The notes below the pieces were generated by a model. That model saw only the letters and a list, made by a program, of their open reading frames with translations. It was not told the origin of the DNA and did not search any database. The translations under genes were made by a program, and so were the position numbers. From the sequence record NC_129764.1: a stretch of 51,099 nucleotides of DNA. The stretch is one strand, 5' to 3'. Positions 2,739-31,282 of the stretch are shown piece after piece. The stretch's first letter is position 1. Each line of letters opens with the position of its first letter. This DNA comes from a phage.

Positions 2739-2908
2739 TGCGCATTCTGATTTGCATGATGGCGGCGGTCGCCCTGGCTATCCTGGTAGTGTCCGGCTGC
2801 GGCGAGGTCAAAGAGCGATGCCATGAAACTGGGAACCAGGTTACTACTTTCGTGATGGTTGGTAACGTATTGCTACCAATCACATCAAATGAAATCACTT
2901 GCGAATAG
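2735..2908 (+). CDS. small putative lipoprotein (57 aa)
   Basis: ATGA overlap start; N-terminal signal-like segment with lipobox-like VVSGC. Confidence 0.45.
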   Translation: MMRILICMMAAVALAILVVSGCGEVKERCHETGNQVTTFVMVGNVLLPITSNEITCE

Positions 2909-2917
2909 GATGTTAAA

Positions 2918-3109
2918 ATGGCTGATTTTATGCACCAAATGATTGCAGTATTCAAAGGCAGCGATGACCAGGAGGTGAAAGAGTGCTTTACTGTCGATAA
3001 GCCTTATAACGCATCGCTAACCAGCTTCGGGAATATCTCATTGCTTGATGATAATGGCGACCCCTGGATATTCGACGAAGATACTGATTGCTTCGAAATT
3101 AAAGAATAG
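2918..3109 (+). CDS. small acidic protein (63 aa)
   Basis: ORF, RBS ggatgttaaaATG; stop TAG in motif. Confidence 0.5.
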   Translation: MADFMHQMIAVFKGSDDQEVKECFTVDKPYNASLTSFGNISLLDDNGDPWIFDEDTDCFEIKE

Positions 3110-3125
3110 CACTTTTTGTTAAAAC
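3105..3125 (+). promoter_or_regulatory. dyad motif copy AATAGCACTTTTTGTTAAAAC
   Basis: Sequence match; downstream hairpin ggggtt-N-aacccc with TATAGT. Confidence 0.65.
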
Positions 3126-3180
3126 TAAATATAGGGGTTGCGCTATAGTAACCCCATCGACAACGAACGAGGACGATAGC

Positions 3181-3669
3181 ATGAAAATCAAATTACTTTG
3201 CACTGGCGGTTACAAGGGCTTTACCCGAGATCTGGAAGCAGACCCTATCGTGGTTGATGCGGTGAAGTGTGATTCCAGTACCGGAGGCTACCGCGTTAAG
3301 GTTGACGATCTGGTTAAAGCTGGCGTGTACGATCTGGACTATGGACTTTCGGTTAGCCCTGTATTTGGTCCGGCTGACTTTAACGAGAATGACGGAACGA
3401 TGTTCTTCTTCGAATGGGAAGTCCAAGCAAATCCTAAGCCGCGCAAGGTTCGACTTCTCAGTAATGGCGGCTACCCGCTGCGACAAGGCTATGAGAACCG
3501 CACATTCCCAGTTATCGTGGACTTTGAAGAAATTACTAGCAATCTGGCATACGTTAACGATGAGCAGTTGCGAGCCGTTGGATTTGTCGGCGGGATGAAT
3601 AAAGAGCCGCTATGCTTCTTCCATTGTAAAGCCGAGCCGTTCGATATTGAGTGCGAGTTAGTATACTAA
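3181..3669 (+). CDS. hypothetical protein (162 aa)
   Basis: ORF, RBS gaggacgatagcATG. Confidence 0.6.
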   Translation: MKIKLLCTGGYKGFTRDLEADPIVVDAVKCDSSTGGYRVKVDDLVKAGVYDLDYGLSVSPVFGPADFNENDGTMFFFEWEVQANPKPRKVRLLSNGGYPLRQGYENRTFPVIVDFEEITSNLAYVNDEQLRAVGFVGGMNKEPLCFFHCKAEPFDIECELVY

Positions 3670-3686
3670 GCACGAATTGTTAAAAT
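3666..3686 (+). promoter_or_regulatory. dyad motif variant CTAAGCACGAATTGTTAAAAT
   Basis: Sequence match; followed 22 nt later by TGGTATAAT. Confidence 0.6.
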
Positions 3687-3740
3687 GGGATTTGTCCTGA
3701 CTGGTATAATCCCCACATCAACCACTAATAGGAAAGCATC

Positions 3741-4226
3741 ATGTTAAAATTAAAAGATATTCAGTTCCCTGTAGTATTTACCACTATTAGCTGCGGTAAA
3801 ATAACCTGCCACAGCAAAGATCGCGCAACAGATTCATCATTCAATGAGTGCCACCCGTCTATTGTTGGTAATCTTATTGAGCTTCATAACAATCACAATC
3901 CTGATAACATCCCATCTCTTCCATATTATGTTGAGGGGGTCGGGCCTGGTTGGAAGGTTGGTCGCTCCATCTTCCATGCAGCAAAGCCAGAAATCAAGCC
4001 AGCGCTACAATGCACTCAGATCGAGAACATGCCATTGAGCGCGACACTAAAAGGTGTCCAACTTGATAGCGAATCTTGGATCGATATTACCGCCACGCCT
4101 AAAACTATTGAGGTACACGATGATGTGGTGATTCTCCTATTGCATTACGGCAGCTTTAAGCACAAAACGGTATCAGGTGAAATAAGCATTAAGCGCGGAA
4201 CGCTTGTACGCTATGAGGTGAAATAA
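3741..4226 (+). CDS. hypothetical protein (161 aa)
   Basis: ORF, RBS taggaaagcatcATG. Confidence 0.6.
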   Translation: MLKLKDIQFPVVFTTISCGKITCHSKDRATDSSFNECHPSIVGNLIELHNNHNPDNIPSLPYYVEGVGPGWKVGRSIFHAAKPEIKPALQCTQIENMPLSATLKGVQLDSESWIDITATPKTIEVHDDVVILLLHYGSFKHKTVSGEISIKRGTLVRYEVK

Positions 4227-26076: not shown

Positions 26077-29000
26077 ATGATTCAAAAAGTGATAAGTGGT
26101 TCGAAAGGCGGCTCTCCTAAGCCTCACAATCCAGTTGAAATGGAAGATAACCTGATCTCAATCAACAAAATAAAGATTCTTCTGGCAGTATCTGATGGCG
26201 AGATTGACGAAACATTCAACCTCAAGCAGCTGATGTTTAACTCAGTCCCGGTGCAAAACGAGGATGGCTCTTTCAACTTTGAAGGCGTAACGGCAGAGTT
26301 CAGGTCGGGCACGCAAACTCAGGAATATATCAAGGGGATGGAAGATAGCTCTAGTGAGGTAACTGTAAACCGTGAGGTTACTACAGATAACCCATACACG
26401 ATCTCAGTAACCAACAAAACGCTTTCGGCAATCCGTATCAAAATGTTTATGCCTCGCGGCGTACGAATTGAGAGCAACGGAGACAAAAACGGCGTTCGAG
26501 TTGAGTACGAAGTGCAGCAAGCGGTTGATGGCGGTTCGTTTGAAAAGGTTCTATCTGACGTAATCGAAGGCAAAACAATGTCAGGTTATGATCGAAGCCG
26601 ACGCATAAACCTTCCGAGCTTCAACAATCAGGTGATATTCAGAGTCGTTCGTAAAACTCCAGACTCTAGCGACTCGAACGTTGTTGACGCGATTCAGGTA
26701 AAGAGCTATGCCGAGGTGATTGATGCAAAATTCCGTTACCCTCTGACTGGTCTTCTTTTCGTCGAGTTCGATTCGAAGATGTTCCCAAACCAGTTACCTA
26801 CGATCTCAATTCGTAAGCGATGGAAGATTGTAAACGTTCCTTCGAACTACGATCCAGAATCACGAACTTATAACGGGAATTGGGATGGAACTTTTAAGAA
26901 GGCGTGGACGAATAATCCGGCTTGGGTGCTTTATGACCTGATGATTAATCAGCGTTATGGTCTGGATCAGAAGGAGCTTGGAATATCTGTCGATAAATGG
27001 GCGCTATATGAGGCGGCGCAATATTGCGACCAGATGGTCCCTGACGGCAAAGGCGGCACAGAGCCTCGCTACCTTTGCGACGTGATAATTCAATCTCAGA
27101 CTGATGCGTACAAGGTGATTCGAGATATTTGCTCAATCTTCCGTGGAATGAGTTTTTGGAATGGTGAAAGCATTTCGGTAATCATCGACAGGCCACGTGA
27201 GCCTGCGTACATCTTCACTAACGACAACGTTGTTAACGGTGACTTCTCCTATACTTTCGCAAGCGAGAAAAGTATGTACACGACGTGCAACGTGATGTTT
27301 GATGATGAACAAAACATGTATCAGCAGGACGTTGAGCCAGTATTCGATCGAGAAGCCACTCTACGGTTCGGGAATAACGTAACAAGCATTACAGCGATCG
27401 GTTGCACACGTCGAAGTGAAGCTAACCGTCGCGGACGATGGATTCTGAAAACAAACCTTCGCAGCACTACGGTAAACTTTGCTACCGGGCTTGAGGGTAT
27501 GATTCCGACAATTGGAGATGTTGTAGCGATAGCTGATAACTTCTGGTCAAGTAACTTGACTATGAACCTGTCAGGGCGTTTGCTCGAAGTGTCTGGAAGT
27601 CAGATTTTCCTGCCGTTCCGCGTTGATGCTCGCGCAGGTGACTTTATTATCGTAAATAAGCCCGATGGCAAGCCCGTGAAGCGCACAATCTCAAGTGTTA
27701 GTGCGGATGGTAAGACTATAGAGGTTAACATCGGCTTTGGCTTTCCTGTGAAGCCTAACACGGTATTCGCAATCGACCGTACCGACATTGCGTTGCAGCA
27801 GTACATCGTGACCAAAATCGACAAGGGTGATGATGATGAGGAATTTACCTACAAAATCACGGCAGTGGAGTACGATCCTAACAAGTACGATGAGATTGAT
27901 TACGGAGTTAACATCGACGACCGACCGACGAGCATCGTTGAGCCAGATCAGATCCCTAAACCGGAAAACGTGAAAGTGTCCTCAGAGTCGAGAATCGTTC
28001 AGGGGATGAGCGTAGAAACGATGATTGTTAGCTGGGATAAAGTGCCTTACGCAGTTTTCTATGACGTCCAGTGGCGAAAGGATAACGGCAACTGGCAAAA
28101 TGTACCGCAGACGGCAAATAAAGAGGTATACGTTGAAGGCATTTACGCTGGAAACTATCAGGTTCGCGTGCGATCCGTCGCTGGTTCAGGCACGACTTCA
28201 GGTTGGTCAAATATCGTAGCTGCGACGCTGACGGGTAAACAAGGTGAGCCGGGACGACCGATTAACCTTACAGCTACGGATGATGTTGTTTTTGGTATCC
28301 GTACAAAATGGGGGTTCTCTGATGGTTCTGGAGATACGGCCTACACGGAGTTGCAGCAGTCACCGGATGGAACAGTGGATAGCGCAAGTTTGCTTTCTTT
28401 GATTCCGTATCCGCAGCATGAGTATTATCACTCACCGATGCCTGGAGGGAATATTGTGTGGTATCGGGTAAGGACGGTTGACAGGATCGGTAACGTATCT
28501 CAGTGGACTGATTTTGTCAGAGGCATGGCATCAACAAACGTTGACGATATCATCGGAGAGATTTCTGTCGATATCGAAAACTCGCCGGGTTACGAGTGGC
28601 TTGTTGATAACGCAACAGACAACGCGGCGCAGAACGCAGCTAACGCAGAGGCAGCAATAGAAAACGCGCTCGCCAATGACAAAGATGCGATCTACATGAA
28701 GAAGGAGAACGGAAAACGAAAAGCTGAGTACACGAAATCACTTAAACTTATTGCTGATGAGACGCAGGCGCGAGTGACGTCGATCGAGCAGTTGAAGGCA
28801 AGTTTTGACGATCAGATTAGCGCAAGCAATAGCGAGTTGCGTGAAGTTATAGCGACCGAGACTGGAGCGATATCGCGTGAAATTGACCAACTCAAGGCTC
28901 AGATTGGTGACGATATTCAGGCGAGCTTGACAGATATCCGAGAGGCTATCGCAAACGAGACTGAGGCCAGAACTCAGGCCGACTTAACGTTAAACGCGAG

Positions 29001-29529
29001 GCTTGGAAATAACGAGGCGGCACTTGCTCAAAAACTTGACTCTTGGAGTAATGCGAGTTCTACCGGGGCGATGTACGGCGTTAAGCTGGGGCTGAAATAC
29101 AACGGGCAGGAATACAGCGCAGGAATGGCTATGTCCCTGATTGGTTCCGGCGCGGCTGTTAAGGCTCAGATTCTTTTTGAGGCGTCACGATTTGCAATCA
29201 TGACCGGGATGAATGGAAAGACACAATACCCGTTTGTTGTTGAGAATGGTCAGGTTATTTTAAGTAGCGCGATCATTAAAAACGGATTCATCACTAATGC
29301 TATGATTGGAAACGTTATTCAATCGAATAACTTCTCTTCAGGTAGTGCTGGATGGATGGTTAACAAGAATGGATCGGCTGAGTTTAATGCGGTTACTGTC
29401 AGAGGCAAACTTTACGCAAGTAACGGTGAGTTTGCATTCAACGGAACGGGTAATACCGTTCAGATTAACAATAACGGCATCACGGTAAACTTACCTGGTG
29501 GCGGGAAAGTTGTAGTGGGGAGGTGGTAA
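26077..29529 (+). CDS. tail tip / host specificity protein (J-like, 1150 aa)
   Basis: Size and position after the I-like gene. Confidence 0.85.
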   Translation: MIQKVISGSKGGSPKPHNPVEMEDNLISINKIKILLAVSDGEIDETFNLKQLMFNSVPVQNEDGSFNFEGVTAEFRSGTQTQEYIKGMEDSSSEVTVNREVTTDNPYTISVTNKTLSAIRIKMFMPRGVRIESNGDKNGVRVEYEVQQAVDGGSFEKVLSDVIEGKTMSGYDRSRRINLPSFNNQVIFRVVRKTPDSSDSNVVDAIQVKSYAEVIDAKFRYPLTGLLFVEFDSKMFPNQLPTISIRKRWKIVNVPSNYDPESRTYNGNWDGTFKKAWTNNPAWVLYDLMINQRYGLDQKELGISVDKWALYEAAQYCDQMVPDGKGGTEPRYLCDVIIQSQTDAYKVIRDICSIFRGMSFWNGESISVIIDRPREPAYIFTNDNVVNGDFSYTFASEKSMYTTCNVMFDDEQNMYQQDVEPVFDREATLRFGNNVTSITAIGCTRRSEANRRGRWILKTNLRSTTVNFATGLEGMIPTIGDVVAIADNFWSSNLTMNLSGRLLEVSGSQIFLPFRVDARAGDFIIVNKPDGKPVKRTISSVSADGKTIEVNIGFGFPVKPNTVFAIDRTDIALQQYIVTKIDKGDDDEEFTYKITAVEYDPNKYDEIDYGVNIDDRPTSIVEPDQIPKPENVKVSSESRIVQGMSVETMIVSWDKVPYAVFYDVQWRKDNGNWQNVPQTANKEVYVEGIYAGNYQVRVRSVAGSGTTSGWSNIVAATLTGKQGEPGRPINLTATDDVVFGIRTKWGFSDGSGDTAYTELQQSPDGTVDSASLLSLIPYPQHEYYHSPMPGGNIVWYRVRTVDRIGNVSQWTDFVRGMASTNVDDIIGEISVDIENSPGYEWLVDNATDNAAQNAANAEAAIENALANDKDAIYMKKENGKRKAEYTKSLKLIADETQARVTSIEQLKASFDDQISASNSELREVIATETGAISREIDQLKAQIGDDIQASLTDIREAIANETEARTQADLTLNARLGNNEAALAQKLDSWSNASSTGAMYGVKLGLKYNGQEYSAGMAMSLIGSGAAVKAQILFEASRFAIMTGMNGKTQYPFVVENGQVILSSAIIKNGFITNAMIGNVIQSNNFSSGSAGWMVNKNGSAEFNAVTVRGKLYASNGEFAFNGTGNTVQINNNGITVNLPGGGKVVVGRW

Positions 29530-29536
29530 AATATAA

Positions 29537-29558
29537 GGGGCCGAGTGGCCCCTTTTTT
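29537..29558. terminator. bidirectional intrinsic terminator
   Basis: ggggccgagtggcccc stem with T-run on plus and A-run upstream; sits between convergent genes. Confidence 0.7.
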
Positions 29559-30531
29559 AATACATGTTCGGAAGAACTATCAACGGAGATTGAATTGCTA
29601 TGTTCCTGTTAGGCATCACGAATTGCTGTCGAGAGTAGTTACCAACAACCTTGTTTTTAGCGACTCTTATTTTGTTACCTGCCATTCTGATCCCGTTCAT
29701 CCTTACGTGGTTGTATCCCCCATTGCTTTCAATCAAAGCGCCGCAGTATGATAGCTGAATAAGGCTGTTCCCTATATCCTGATCCCCTGTGCCGATATTG
29801 ATTACGCGGTTGTAAACGAATGGCTTATTTACTGTAGAGAAAGTAACCTGACCTTGCTTGTTGGTCATAGTTATACCGTTACCGCCACGCGGTGGAGTGT
29901 TATTGAATATCACCAAATCCATAGTAACAGAAGCCGTAACGTCATCTCTTCCCCCGTATGATGCATTCCTTACCGTGATGTTTGAACCGTCAAATCCAAC
30001 GCTTACATTAGGATCGTTCCATCTAGCGAAAGGAATGCCGCTTACTGGCAATTTCATGTTTCCATTAACAGTTATTCGATTTGAATATTGGCACGTCATT
30101 AATTTTGCCACGTTTGATATAGCGGTGAAGTCAGTCGAGTTTGCAACAAGTAGACCCTCATTTCTTGTGCCGACTGGTAATATCTCCATGACAGTACCAG
30201 CCCACTGAGGTAGCCCGGTATATGCACTCAATGCATCCTCACCTCTAATTATCACTCCGCTATTGCCATTCCTTGATACCGTCGTCGCATAAAACGGATC
30301 TGGTATTACAAGAGTCTGGTCAAATACCTCAATAACATCAACAGGTTTTGTGAAAACAACAACAACCTGAGATCCTGGCGTCAATGGAGTATTAACAGTC
30401 AACGTTTTATTTGATTGCGCCCTCTGATTAAAGTTAGCGCAGAATGACGGTGCGCGAAGCCCTGCCGTTATTTGCATCGCTGGTCGTCCGTCATTGTAGT
30501 TTACATATATCCCCTCACCCATAATTACCAC
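29557..30531 (-). CDS. hypothetical protein (324 aa), co-transcribed with lipoprotein; possible receptor-binding or exclusion accessory
   Basis: Long minus-strand ORF overlapping the lipoprotein gene end; function unassigned. Confidence 0.5.
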   Translation of the reverse strand: MVIMGEGIYVNYNDGRPAMQITAGLRAPSFCANFNQRAQSNKTLTVNTPLTPGSQVVVVFTKPVDVIEVFDQTLVIPDPFYATTVSRNGNSGVIIRGEDALSAYTGLPQWAGTVMEILPVGTRNEGLLVANSTDFTAISNVAKLMTCQYSNRITVNGNMKLPVSGIPFARWNDPNVSVGFDGSNITVRNASYGGRDDVTASVTMDLVIFNNTPPRGGNGITMTNKQGQVTFSTVNKPFVYNRVINIGTGDQDIGNSLIQLSYCGALIESNGGYNHVRMNGIRMAGNKIRVAKNKVVGNYSRQQFVMPNRNIAIQSPLIVLPNMY

Positions 30532-30755
30532 TCCTTAGTTTTGACTGAGATCTTACCGCTAAAGTTGCCCTGATTGTCGTCTGATGAAAGGCCTTTGAAT
30601 CGCATGTCAACTTCTCCAGCAGGTACTTTCTTACCGTCAACGAATCGCATCATGCAAGATCCGTAAGCGTAAGTAACACAGTCGCCATTCTTAAGATTCT
30701 GAGCGCAACCAGTCAGGATGAACGCAGCGGCGATAATGGTGATTAACTTTTTCAT
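30525..30755 (-). CDS. lipoprotein, Cor/Llp-like superinfection exclusion candidate (76 aa)
   Basis: Signal peptide with lipobox LTGC; small size; location next to tail genes as in FhuA-dependent phages. Confidence 0.55.
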   Translation of the reverse strand: MKKLITIIAAAFILTGCAQNLKNGDCVTYAYGSCMMRFVDGKKVPAGEVDMRFKGLSSDDNQGNFSGKISVKTKEW

Positions 30756-31282
30756 TTGTATGCCCTCGTCGTTAGTGTGTTTGAATTGTATGTCGCATTT
30801 ACTTTTATTGCAATAGTTCGATTACAATTTTTTTCGCGTAACAGGTGTCTATTTTTGTAACTGGAAGTGGTGTTACAAAATCGACCTCATTCGACCGCAG
30901 GTAGATATGATAAAAACTCTATATAATATATATAGATAGATAATATTTAATTTTAGCTTTATATATATAATTATTGCTGTGTAACAGTTGTCTATCATGT
31001 AACAGGTGATTTGATTGATTCGTCAAATTTCTATCATATATGTTCAAAATTTAATCAATCTTGGTTCTATTCATGGATATCTGTGTATTTATAAGAAAAA
31101 GCGGTTACAAGTGTTACACAATATACACCACATAAAATCAGTGTTAATCTATTGATTCCATTGATGCTGGTTGTAACTTGAGCGATATAGACACACGATT
31201 ACACACCAATTACATGTATTCGATTGACTAAACGCTGTTAATGGCTATAATGAATTCATCGTAAACGAAGGAGATAAACGAA
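30756..31282. promoter_or_regulatory. AT-rich divergent control region with GTAACA/GTTACA repeats and TATAGATAATA tracts
   Basis: No ORF; AT tract 30900-30980; repeats gtaacag/gttacaa; GTGGTGTTACAAAAT at 30868-30881 matches 169-181. Confidence 0.55.

What the first reader, a model, noticed from the sequence alone, without database searches (positions are those of the whole stretch)
29557..30755. Minus-strand lipoprotein (Cor/Llp-like) plus 324-aa protein operon convergent on the tail tip gene
A 76-aa lipoprotein (lipobox LTGC) and an overlapping 324-aa protein are transcribed antisense to the tail genes from the AT-rich region and end at a bidirectional terminator shared with the J-like gene. 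Small outer-membrane lipoproteins encoded next to tail or receptor-binding genes are known to block the phage receptor and protect lysing cells from superinfection. The partner protein is uncharacterised and could be the matching receptor-binding or exclusion component.
Basis: partly seen in the sequence, partly recalled or inferred. Interest (0 to 1): 0.5.

Follow-up and report, generated by a model that had tools for sequence, protein, structure and literature searches.

The report
LptD receptor-binding and exclusion gene pair
These two minus-strand genes are the already described host-recognition cassette of T1-like phages: a tail-tip protein that most likely binds the bacterial LPS exporter LptD, and a small lipoprotein that blocks LptD from inside the infected cell. 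The finding is real but ordinary.

Summary
Both ORFs, the lipobox, the shared bidirectional terminator and the AT-rich upstream region are present as described. The window is a Tunavirus (T1-like, Drexlerviridae), about 94% identical in DNA to phage vB_EcoS_SA12KD.

- **The "324-aa partner".** It most likely starts at ATG 30522 (321 aa) and does not overlap the lipoprotein gene. It belongs to Pfam DUF6453. It is 78% identical over its full length to the phage Oekolampad receptor-binding protein (RBP), whose cryo-EM structure bound to LptDE is solved (PDB 9RPT).
- **The 76-aa lipoprotein.** It belongs to Pfam PF24052 and is homologous to Rtp45 (PDB 9RPS), the superinfection-exclusion (SE) lipoprotein that binds the periplasmic face of LptD. 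The disulfide cysteine pair is conserved.
- **Cor and Llp.** The pair works like T5 pb5/Llp and the T1 FhuA locus/Cor but is not homologous to them. Only the 17-residue signal peptide is identical to that of T1 Cor.

The one small addition is a nested mosaic. Compared with T1, the swapped cassette runs from the J C-terminal tip to the mature lipoprotein. Compared with SH6-type Tunaviruses, only the RBP body (residues ~29-316) is replaced and the lipoprotein is kept. Novelty is low. Receptor use and exclusion are inferred by homology and were not tested for this phage.

The parts
29374..29529 (+). C-terminal tip (about 52 codons) of the J-like tail-tip protein; the part of J that travels with the receptor cassette
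   Evidence: DNA homology to T1 (FhuA-type locus) stops at 29373. The C-terminal tail GEFAFNGT.NTVQINNNGITVNLP.GG.VVVG.W is shared with SH6 and Rtp and largely with Oekolampad, which all carry DUF6453-type loci, but not with T1. bioRxiv 10.64898/2026.04.02.716166 reports the GpJ C-terminal tip as a specificity-associated feature.
29535..29554 (.). Bidirectional intrinsic-terminator-like hairpin between the convergent J and RBP genes
   Evidence: The hairpin has 8 pairs, 6 of them G-C, with T-rich tails on both strands. Both terminators are annotated at the same place in SA12KD.
29557..30522 (-).
   Evidence: Pfam PF20051 E=6e-123. PDB 9rpt_C (Oekolampad RBP in complex with LptDE) E=7e-172 over residues 1-321. 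Identity is 78% to Oekolampad, 42% to SH6 gp49 and 34% to Rtp44, with full coverage in each case. There is no hydrophobic segment: the maximum 19-aa Kyte-Doolittle hydropathy is 1.19.
30438..30522 (-). Conserved N-terminal ~28 codons of the RBP, retained from the Tunavirus backbone; candidate J-docking segment (inference)
   Evidence: DNA homology to SH6 resumes at 30438. Residues 1-30 are 73% identical to SH6, against 20% for residues 31-60. A search with the N-terminal 35 aa found it in 334 phage records; the 60 listed are phages or lineages that also appear among the full-length DUF6453 hits.
30531..30536 (-). Ribosome-binding site AAGGAG for the RBP gene, inside the last codons of the lipoprotein gene
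   Evidence: Read directly from the sequence. There are 8 nt between the site and ATG 30522.
30525..30755 (-). Superinfection-exclusion lipoprotein precursor, 76 aa (signal peptide 30705-30755; mature 60 aa from Cys17), Rtp45 family
   Evidence: Pfam PF24052 E=7e-25. PDB 9rps_D (Rtp45) E=8e-10. Identity is 95% to SH6 gp50, 68% to Oekolampad bas18_0026 and 41% to Rtp45. Cys26 and Cys34 align with the Rtp45 disulfide Cys30-Cys38 (PMC12685063).
30756..31282 (.). AT-rich divergent intergenic region with candidate promoters for the minus-strand pair and for the plus-strand recE-like gene
   Evidence: GC is 30.9%. Promoter-like sites lie at 31147-31120 (-) and 30813-30785 (-), and at 31224-31251 (+, 11/12 matches). 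Matching promoter annotations exist in SA12KD. The count of promoter-like sites is not above chance.

Best explanation
This is the receptor-specificity cassette of a T1-like (Tunavirus) siphophage, in its LptD-targeting version.

[quoted passage not shown] By homology to the Oekolampad RBP, its body inserts into the extracellular mouth of the LptD barrel in an open state. There it contacts extracellular loops EL3-5 and EL11, which commits the phage to irreversible adsorption and DNA ejection.

**Lipoprotein (76-aa precursor).** It is exported and lipidated at Cys17. With Ala at position +2 it should be sorted to the inner leaflet of the outer membrane. By homology to Rtp45, it binds the periplasmic face of LptD between LptE and LptM and pushes a hairpin up the barrel lumen. 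This displaces loop EL4, so LptD on an infected cell, or on its debris, can no longer bind the RBP.

**Expression.** The two genes form one minus-strand unit (a 2-nt spacer, with the RBP ribosome-binding site inside the lipoprotein gene). It is driven from the AT-rich divergent promoter region and stops at the hairpin shared with J.

**Shown here:** gene structure, family membership, full-length homology to the two solved proteins, conserved cysteines, synteny and mosaic boundaries.
**Shown elsewhere, for homologues only:** LptDE binding and the structural mechanism.
**Inferred for this phage:** LptD use, exclusion, docking on J, co-transcription and timing.
For: **RBP.**
- Pfam DUF6453, E=6e-123.
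- PDB 9rpt_C, E=7e-172, 78% identity over 321/321 residues, no indels.
- The window protein has Gln at position 299, aligned with Oekolampad Gln299, which hydrogen-bonds LptD Ser350.
- The same family includes Rtp44 (34%), AugustePiccard, JeanPiccard, HK578, TheodorHerzl and Bas83-85.
- Published work assigns this family to LptD, using >30% identity and >99% coverage as the family criterion.

**Lipoprotein.**
- PF24052, E=7e-25.
- Rtp45, PDB 9rps_D, E=8e-10.
- Lipobox, the Cys26/Cys34 pair and the VPAGEVD.R motif are conserved.

**Synteny.** The lipoprotein-RBP pair is convergent on gpJ in SA12KD, SH6, Rtp and Oekolampad.

**J tip.** It is of the type seen in the other DUF6453-locus phages and differs from T1.

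**Terminator and ribosome-binding site:**
Against: - No experiment exists for this phage or for its five near-identical relatives, which are annotated only as 'hypothetical' or 'membrane protein'.
- 22% of RBP residues differ from Oekolampad. I could not map these onto the LptD interface because no coordinates or usable model were available.
- RBP families can change receptor at low identity. The T5 pb5 homologues that bind FhuA versus BtuB are about 30% identical.
- In the text I read, the exclusion role of Rtp45 rests on a co-purified complex and its structure. I saw no plating or adsorption assay.
- Identity of the lipoprotein to Rtp45 is only 41%.
- Promoter predictions are not above chance.
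Confidence: 0.9

Rival explanations
1. The 321-aa protein is an RBP of this fold family but recognises an outer-membrane protein other than LptD. The lipoprotein then blocks that other receptor.
For: It is 22% diverged from the nearest experimentally characterised member. Receptor switching within an RBP family is known for the pb5 homologues of T5-like phages. Two alleles only 42% identical to each other coexist in Tunaviruses.
Against: Every member of this family with an experimentally determined receptor uses LptD, across identities down to ~33%. The accompanying lipoprotein belongs to the LptD-binding Rtp45 family. The J C-terminal tip matches the other DUF6453-locus phages.
Confidence: 0.05
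2. The lipoprotein is a Cor-type protein that inactivates FhuA, as in T1, phi80 and N15. The pair is then unrelated to LptD.
For: PHROG 1119 'Cor superinfection exclusion protein' matches at E=5.6e-6. BLASTP against T1 Cor gives E=2e-10, with the first 17 residues identical. The gene sits at the same genome position as T1 cor.
Against: The PHROG match covers only residues 1-33. Beyond the signal peptide, 7 of 36 aligned residues match T1 Cor. The window protein scores 87 bits on PF24052 (cut-off 27), whereas T1 Cor scores 17.7, below the cut-off. DNA homology to T1 ends exactly at the signal-peptide/mature junction, 30705. The T1 locus has different partner genes, ST31 and ST32, on the other strand, with no similarity to the 321-aa protein.
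Confidence: 0.03
3. The 321-aa protein is a non-structural membrane protein or 'moron', as the PHROG and RefSeq labels say. It would act in the infected cell as a second exclusion component rather than as part of the virion.
For: PHROG 1265 is labelled 'membrane protein; moron, auxiliary metabolic gene and host takeover'. RefSeq labels several homologues 'membrane protein'. The gene is transcribed antisense to the tail operon, together with an exclusion gene.
Against: It has no signal peptide or hydrophobic segment: maximum 19-aa hydropathy is 1.19. The 78%-identical homologue was purified as a soluble protein that binds the extracellular face of LptDE. Allelic variants of this gene track receptor specificity across families. 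The labels are automatic annotations, not tests.
Confidence: 0.02

Closest known systems
Oekolampad (Bas18, Dhillonvirus) bas18_0025 RBP and bas18_0026 SE lipoprotein; PDB 9RPT/9RPW/9RQI (Dunbar et al., PNAS 2025, PMC12685063)
   Same: The gene order, orientation and position downstream of the J-like gene are the same. The RBP is 78% identical over the full length with no indels. The lipoprotein is 68% identical.
   Different: The phage backbone differs: Tunavirus here, Dhillonvirus there. At DNA level the cassettes are only ~68% identical. The lipoprotein here is of the SH6/Tunavirus type rather than the Dhillonvirus type. No experiment exists for the window allele.
Phage Rtp rtp44 (RBP) and rtp45 (SE lipoprotein); PDB 9RPS
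   Same: Same two Pfam families, the same arrangement, the same conserved Cys pair and the same J C-terminal tail.
   Different: Identity is only 34% for the RBP and 41% for the lipoprotein. In Rtp the two genes overlap by one base in the annotation (2771-3001 and 3001-3936). Here they are separated by 2 nt.
SH6/Sfin-1-type Tunavirus locus (SH6 gp49 and gp50)
   Same: Same backbone, with ~90% DNA identity on both sides. The lipoprotein is 95% identical. The RBP N-terminal ~28 residues, the C-terminal end and the J tip are the same.
   Different: The RBP body (window 29573-30437) has no detectable DNA homology and only 42% protein identity. The SH6-type allele has no experimentally determined receptor that I found.
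T5 pb5 (oad) and Llp
   Same: The logic is the same: a monomeric RBP on the central fibre tip, and an adjacent small periplasmic lipoprotein that disables the receptor from inside (PMC9586334, cited).
   Different: There is no sequence similarity: Llp gives no alignment and pb5 E=1.9. The receptor is FhuA. Llp acts by long-range allostery, whereas Rtp45 acts by steric displacement of EL4. The T5 genes are divergent, not co-oriented.
T1 FhuA-type locus (ST32, ST31, Cor)
   Same: It occupies the same genomic slot between J and recE. The lipoprotein gene is on the minus strand with an identical signal peptide and the same upstream region.
   Different: T1 has two plus-strand genes in place of one minus-strand RBP gene. 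The mature Cor, ST31 and the J C-terminal ~35 residues are unrelated or strongly diverged.

Membership tests
LptD-specific RBP family of small siphoviruses (Pfam PF20051 DUF6453; Rtp44 / Oekolampad RBP) | Scores above the Pfam gathering threshold for PF20051 | tested here: met
   410 bits against a cut-off of 25, E=6e-123, covering profile positions 1-290 of 291.
LptD-specific RBP family of small siphoviruses (Pfam PF20051 DUF6453; Rtp44 / Oekolampad RBP) | >30% identity with >99% coverage to members of experimentally known LptD specificity (the criterion of bioRxiv 10.64898/2026.04.02.716166) | tested here: met
   78.2% identity over 100% of the length to Oekolampad, and 33.8% over 100% to Rtp44. 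PDB 9rpt_C E=7e-172.
LptD-specific RBP family of small siphoviruses (Pfam PF20051 DUF6453; Rtp44 / Oekolampad RBP) | Encoded directly downstream of, and convergent with, the gpJ homologue, next to a small lipoprotein gene | tested here: met
   Shown. The layout is the same in SA12KD, Rtp, SH6 and Oekolampad.
LptD-specific RBP family of small siphoviruses (Pfam PF20051 DUF6453; Rtp44 / Oekolampad RBP) | Binds LptDE; infection is lost on lptD loop mutants | not testable with these tools
   This needs plating on lptD mutants or a pull-down. It has been shown only for the homologue.
LptD-specific RBP family of small siphoviruses (Pfam PF20051 DUF6453; Rtp44 / Oekolampad RBP) | Same three-dimensional fold as the solved RBP | tested here: inconclusive
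The fold is inferred from 78% identity without indels.
Rtp45-type superinfection-exclusion lipoprotein (Pfam PF24052 Phage_lipoprotein) | Scores above the Pfam gathering threshold for PF24052 | tested here: met
   87.2 bits against a cut-off of 27, E=7e-25. PDB 9rps_D (Rtp45) E=8e-10.
Rtp45-type superinfection-exclusion lipoprotein (Pfam PF24052 Phage_lipoprotein) | Lipoprotein signal peptide with a lipobox cysteine and an outer-membrane sorting residue | tested here: met
   The lipobox is LTG|C17 and the +2 residue is Ala, not Asp. The sorting rule comes from established knowledge of the E. coli Lol pathway.
Rtp45-type superinfection-exclusion lipoprotein (Pfam PF24052 Phage_lipoprotein) | Conserved disulfide pair (Rtp45 Cys30-Cys38) and core motif | tested here: met
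   Cys26 and Cys34 are invariant in the four-sequence alignment, as are G41, V44, P45, A46, G47, D50 and R52. The disulfide is described in PMC12685063.
Rtp45-type superinfection-exclusion lipoprotein (Pfam PF24052 Phage_lipoprotein) | Binds the periplasmic face of LptD and prevents RBP binding or phage adsorption | not testable with these tools
   Structure is available for Rtp45 only. I saw no plating assay in the text I read.
Cor (T1 / phi80 / N15 FhuA-inactivating lipoprotein) | Homology of the mature protein to Cor | tested here: not met
   Identity to T1 Cor is 17/17 in the signal peptide and 7/36 after it. The PHROG 1119 match covers residues 1-33 only.
Llp (T5 FhuA-inactivating lipoprotein) | Sequence homology to T5 Llp | tested here: not met
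   BLASTP finds no alignment at E<=100. No Llp chain appears in the PDB search at E<=1.

The most novel reading that the evidence does not exclude
The locus is a two-level exchangeable cassette with fixed junctions.

- **Outer swap.** An exchange between receptor classes (LptD type versus the FhuA type of T1) is bounded by the last ~52 codons of J on one side and by the signal-peptide/mature junction of the lipoprotein on the other.
- **Inner swap.** An exchange within the LptD class replaces only RBP residues ~29-316. It keeps the N-terminal ~28 residues, which would be the J-docking adaptor, and keeps the resident exclusion lipoprotein.

If true, one lipoprotein protects against two RBP lineages that are only 42% identical. 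The short conserved junctions would be usable as splice points for engineering receptor specificity.
Probability: 0.45. Interest if true: 0.3.

Novelty: already known. Interest (0 to 1): 0.15.

Why it matters
It allows an in-silico receptor call (LptD) for this phage and for five near-identical GenBank phages whose genes are labelled only 'hypothetical' or 'membrane protein'. It also shows that the PHROG and RefSeq label 'membrane protein / moron' for this family is out of date. LptD is essential and conserved, so phages that use it are of practical interest. However, published work already shows that resistance arises through single loop mutations with no major outer-membrane defect. The fine mapping of recombination junctions may help anyone who wants to swap receptor modules between T1-like phages. 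Nothing here changes current understanding.

Tried and rejected
- **Structure prediction.** The single-sequence AlphaFold2 run gave mean pLDDT 30 and pTM 0.18. I discarded it and ran no fold search. I ran no further search on a deeper alignment, because the PDB sequence match already settles the family.
- **Defence and naming libraries.** PADLOC gave no hit. NCBIfam gave only a sub-threshold signal-peptide match.
- **Direct comparisons with the classical analogues.** T5 Llp gave no alignment, T5 pb5 E=1.9 and T1 ST31 E=0.1. Homology is rejected in all three cases.
- **Is the conserved RBP N-terminus an adaptor shared with other RBP families?** A 35-aa tblastn search found 334 records. The 60 listed are phages or lineages that also appear among the full-length DUF6453 hits. 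I did not cross-check the other 274. There is therefore no support from other RBP bodies. The single 'N-terminus only' hit (Citrobacter phage HCF1) is a truncated remnant in an unverified assembly.
- **Experimental receptor data for the SH6-type allele.** Phage JNUWD, which has lptD resistance mutations, is related to CY1_Cui-2023, a ~43-kb phage whose allele hits resemble Rtp and Msk. It is not SH6-like.
- **Promoter scan.** Sites exist, but their number equals the chance expectation. Promoter assignments therefore remain tentative.

Full report
**What is there.** One search confirms two co-oriented minus-strand ORFs. One spans 30525-30755 (76 aa, beginning MKKLITIIAAAFILTGC). The other spans 29557-30531 (324 aa from a GTG start). 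The upstream plus-strand gene, 26077-29529, is a 1150-aa J-like tail-tip protein with the Pfam domains FNIII-A_GpJ, Phage-tail_3 and Phage_Tail_Tip. An 8-bp GC-rich hairpin at 29535-29554 lies between the convergent stop codons and scores as terminator-like on both strands. The 527-bp region upstream of the lipoprotein gene has 30.9% GC, against 45.5% for the window.

One correction concerns the start codon. The GTG at 30531 lies at the edge of an AAGGAG ribosome-binding site, whereas the ATG at 30522 lies 8 nt downstream of it. The ATG gives 321 aa, as annotated in relatives, and leaves a 2-nt gap rather than an overlap.

**Whose genome.** The region is 95% identical in DNA to Escherichia phages vB_EcoS_SA12KD and SA30RD, which are Drexlerviridae, Tunavirinae, Tunavirus. 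An 8.1-kb stretch aligns to SA12KD at 93.9%. Downstream on the plus strand lie recE-like and erf-like genes, as in T1.

**What the proteins are.**
- *The 321-aa protein.* It is a full-length member of Pfam DUF6453 (E=6e-123). Against all PDB chains it has one hit: 9rpt_C, labelled 'Tail fiber protein', E=7e-172, residues 1-321 aligned to 1-321 without gaps. That chain is the receptor-binding protein of phage Oekolampad (Bas18). [quoted passage not shown] Single lptD mutations (Y671N, D352Y) abolish both binding and infection. Identity is 78% to Oekolampad, 42% to SH6 gp49 and 34% to Rtp44, each with full coverage.
- *The 76-aa protein.* It belongs to Pfam PF24052 (E=7e-25) and matches PDB 9rps_D (E=8e-10). 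[quoted passage not shown] Rtp45 has a hairpin that rises through the barrel lumen and displaces loop EL4 by up to 20 Å, which is incompatible with RBP binding. The window protein keeps the lipobox cysteine. It also keeps the two cysteines that align with the Rtp45 Cys30-Cys38 disulfide, and a VPAGEVD.R motif.

**Context in the literature.** Maffei et al. [quoted passage not shown] Its allelic types match FhuA, BtuB, YncD or LptD specificity, and it is frequently transferred horizontally. A 2026 preprint confirmed four unrelated RBP families at the locus. It defined each by >30% identity and >99% coverage, and noted that the GpJ C-terminal tip co-varies with specificity. The window locus meets the LptD-family criteria. 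That reading is supported, and the system is already known.

**What it is not.**
- T5 Llp gives no alignment at all.
- T5 pb5 and T1 ST31 show no significant similarity to the RBP.
- The PHROG 'Cor' match (E=5.6e-6) covers only residues 1-33.
- Against T1 Cor, the first 17 residues (the signal peptide) are identical, and then only 7 of 36 aligned residues match.

'Cor/Llp-like' is therefore a functional analogy, not family membership. The PHROG and RefSeq label 'membrane protein' for the RBP is unsupported. The protein has no hydrophobic segment, and its homologue is a soluble protein that binds LptD from outside.

**Mosaic structure (the only modest addition).**
- *Against T1.* DNA homology (~92%) stops at 29373, inside the last ~52 codons of J. 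It resumes at 30705, exactly after the 17 signal-peptide codons of the lipoprotein gene. The unit that differs between the FhuA-type and LptD-type Tunaviruses is therefore the J tip, the terminator, the RBP and the mature lipoprotein.
- *The J tail.* The C-terminal tail of J (…GEFAFNGT.NTVQINNNGITVNLP.GG.VVVG.W) is shared with SH6 and Rtp, and in more diverged form with Oekolampad. It is replaced in T1.
- *Against SH6.* SH6 is a Tunavirus with the same lipoprotein (95% identical). Homology (~90%) runs through J, the terminator and the last few RBP codons to 29572, and resumes at 30438. Only RBP residues ~29-316 are replaced, by a body whose nearest relatives are Dhillonvirus alleles (75-78% protein identity, ~68% DNA identity).
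- *The RBP N-terminus.* The first ~28 residues are the best-conserved part of the family (73% to SH6, against 20% in the next 30 residues). A 35-aa search returned 334 records. All 60 records listed were phages or lineages that also appear among the full-length DUF6453 hits. The Gordonclarkvirinae homologues align only over residues ~111-315 and so lack it.

A role for these residues in docking on J is a reasonable inference but is untested. The lipoprotein follows the backbone rather than the RBP allele. That pattern makes sense if it acts on the receptor and both alleles use LptD.

**Limits.**
- Nothing has been tested for this phage.
- I could not map the 22% sequence differences onto the binding interface.
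- In the text I read, the exclusion function of Rtp45 rests on structure, with no plating assay seen.
- The SH6-type allele has no experimentally determined receptor that I found.
- Promoter calls are not above chance.

**Verdict.** This is a real, correctly read feature: a member of a published and structurally characterised module, the LptD-type RBP plus exclusion lipoprotein of small siphoviruses. Interest is low. Confidence in the assignment is about 0.9.

Noticed in passing
Not in the window. L007:2659-3690 and L008:2441-2722 (phage EP335, NC_070979); L009:5059-6090 (phage SU10, NC_027395): Gordonclarkvirinae podoviruses (Kuravirus and relatives) carry distant homologues of both proteins, but unlinked. 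The first is a 343-aa DUF6453 protein (EP335 ORF19: Pfam E=2e-23, PDB 9rpt_C E=1.5e-10; SU10 gp19: E=7e-13 against the window RBP). It is encoded directly after the SU10 tail-needle gene gp18. The second is a 93-aa PF24052 lipoprotein (E=3.5e-36) in the early-gene region. This suggests LptD as a terminal receptor for these podoviruses. No paper in the searchable library links Kuravirus and LptD.
   Followed up: partly
window 30705-30755 (-): The 17-residue signal peptide of the lipoprotein is identical to that of T1 Cor, although the mature proteins are unrelated. DNA homology to T1 resumes exactly at this junction, so the signal-peptide coding segment serves as a recombination joint between receptor cassettes. 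It also explains the misleading PHROG 'Cor' hit.
   Followed up: yes
window 29573-30437: Relative to SH6-type Tunaviruses, only the body of the RBP gene is replaced. Both ends of the gene and the lipoprotein gene are retained at ~90% DNA identity.
   Followed up: yes
window 30823-31181: The AT-rich divergent promoter region holds 8 copies of GTAAC/GTTAC in ~340 bp (19 per kb, against 2.3 per kb in the window). It also holds a 15-mer, GTAACAG(G/T)TGTCTAT, present twice (30838, 30981) inside a 30-nt direct repeat. The 15-mer occurs nowhere else in the window (0.11 matches expected by chance). It is conserved in SA12KD (2 copies) and SH6 (1 copy). It may be a regulator binding site.
   Followed up: partly
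L005:3272-3602 (Citrobacter phage HCF1, MN545971, an UNVERIFIED_ASMBLY record): This record has a lipoprotein gene followed by only the first ~34 codons of a DUF6453 RBP, abutting the J gene. It is either a deleted RBP or an assembly error.
   Followed up: partly
Database records found: Alleles of this RBP at 65-78% identity sit in records named after unlikely hosts: Campylobacter phages A127/A134, Acinetobacter phage NJ01, Aeromonas phage SD04 and Sodalis phage SO-1. These genomes are of E. coli Dhillonvirus-like size (44-60 kb). The host labels may be wrong or may reflect contaminating coliphages.
   Followed up: no
PHROG 1265 and RefSeq annotations of homologues: The DUF6453 RBP family is labelled 'membrane protein; moron, auxiliary metabolic gene and host takeover' in PHROGs and 'membrane protein' in RefSeq. 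This conflicts with the solved structure of a member acting as a virion receptor-binding protein.
   Followed up: yes
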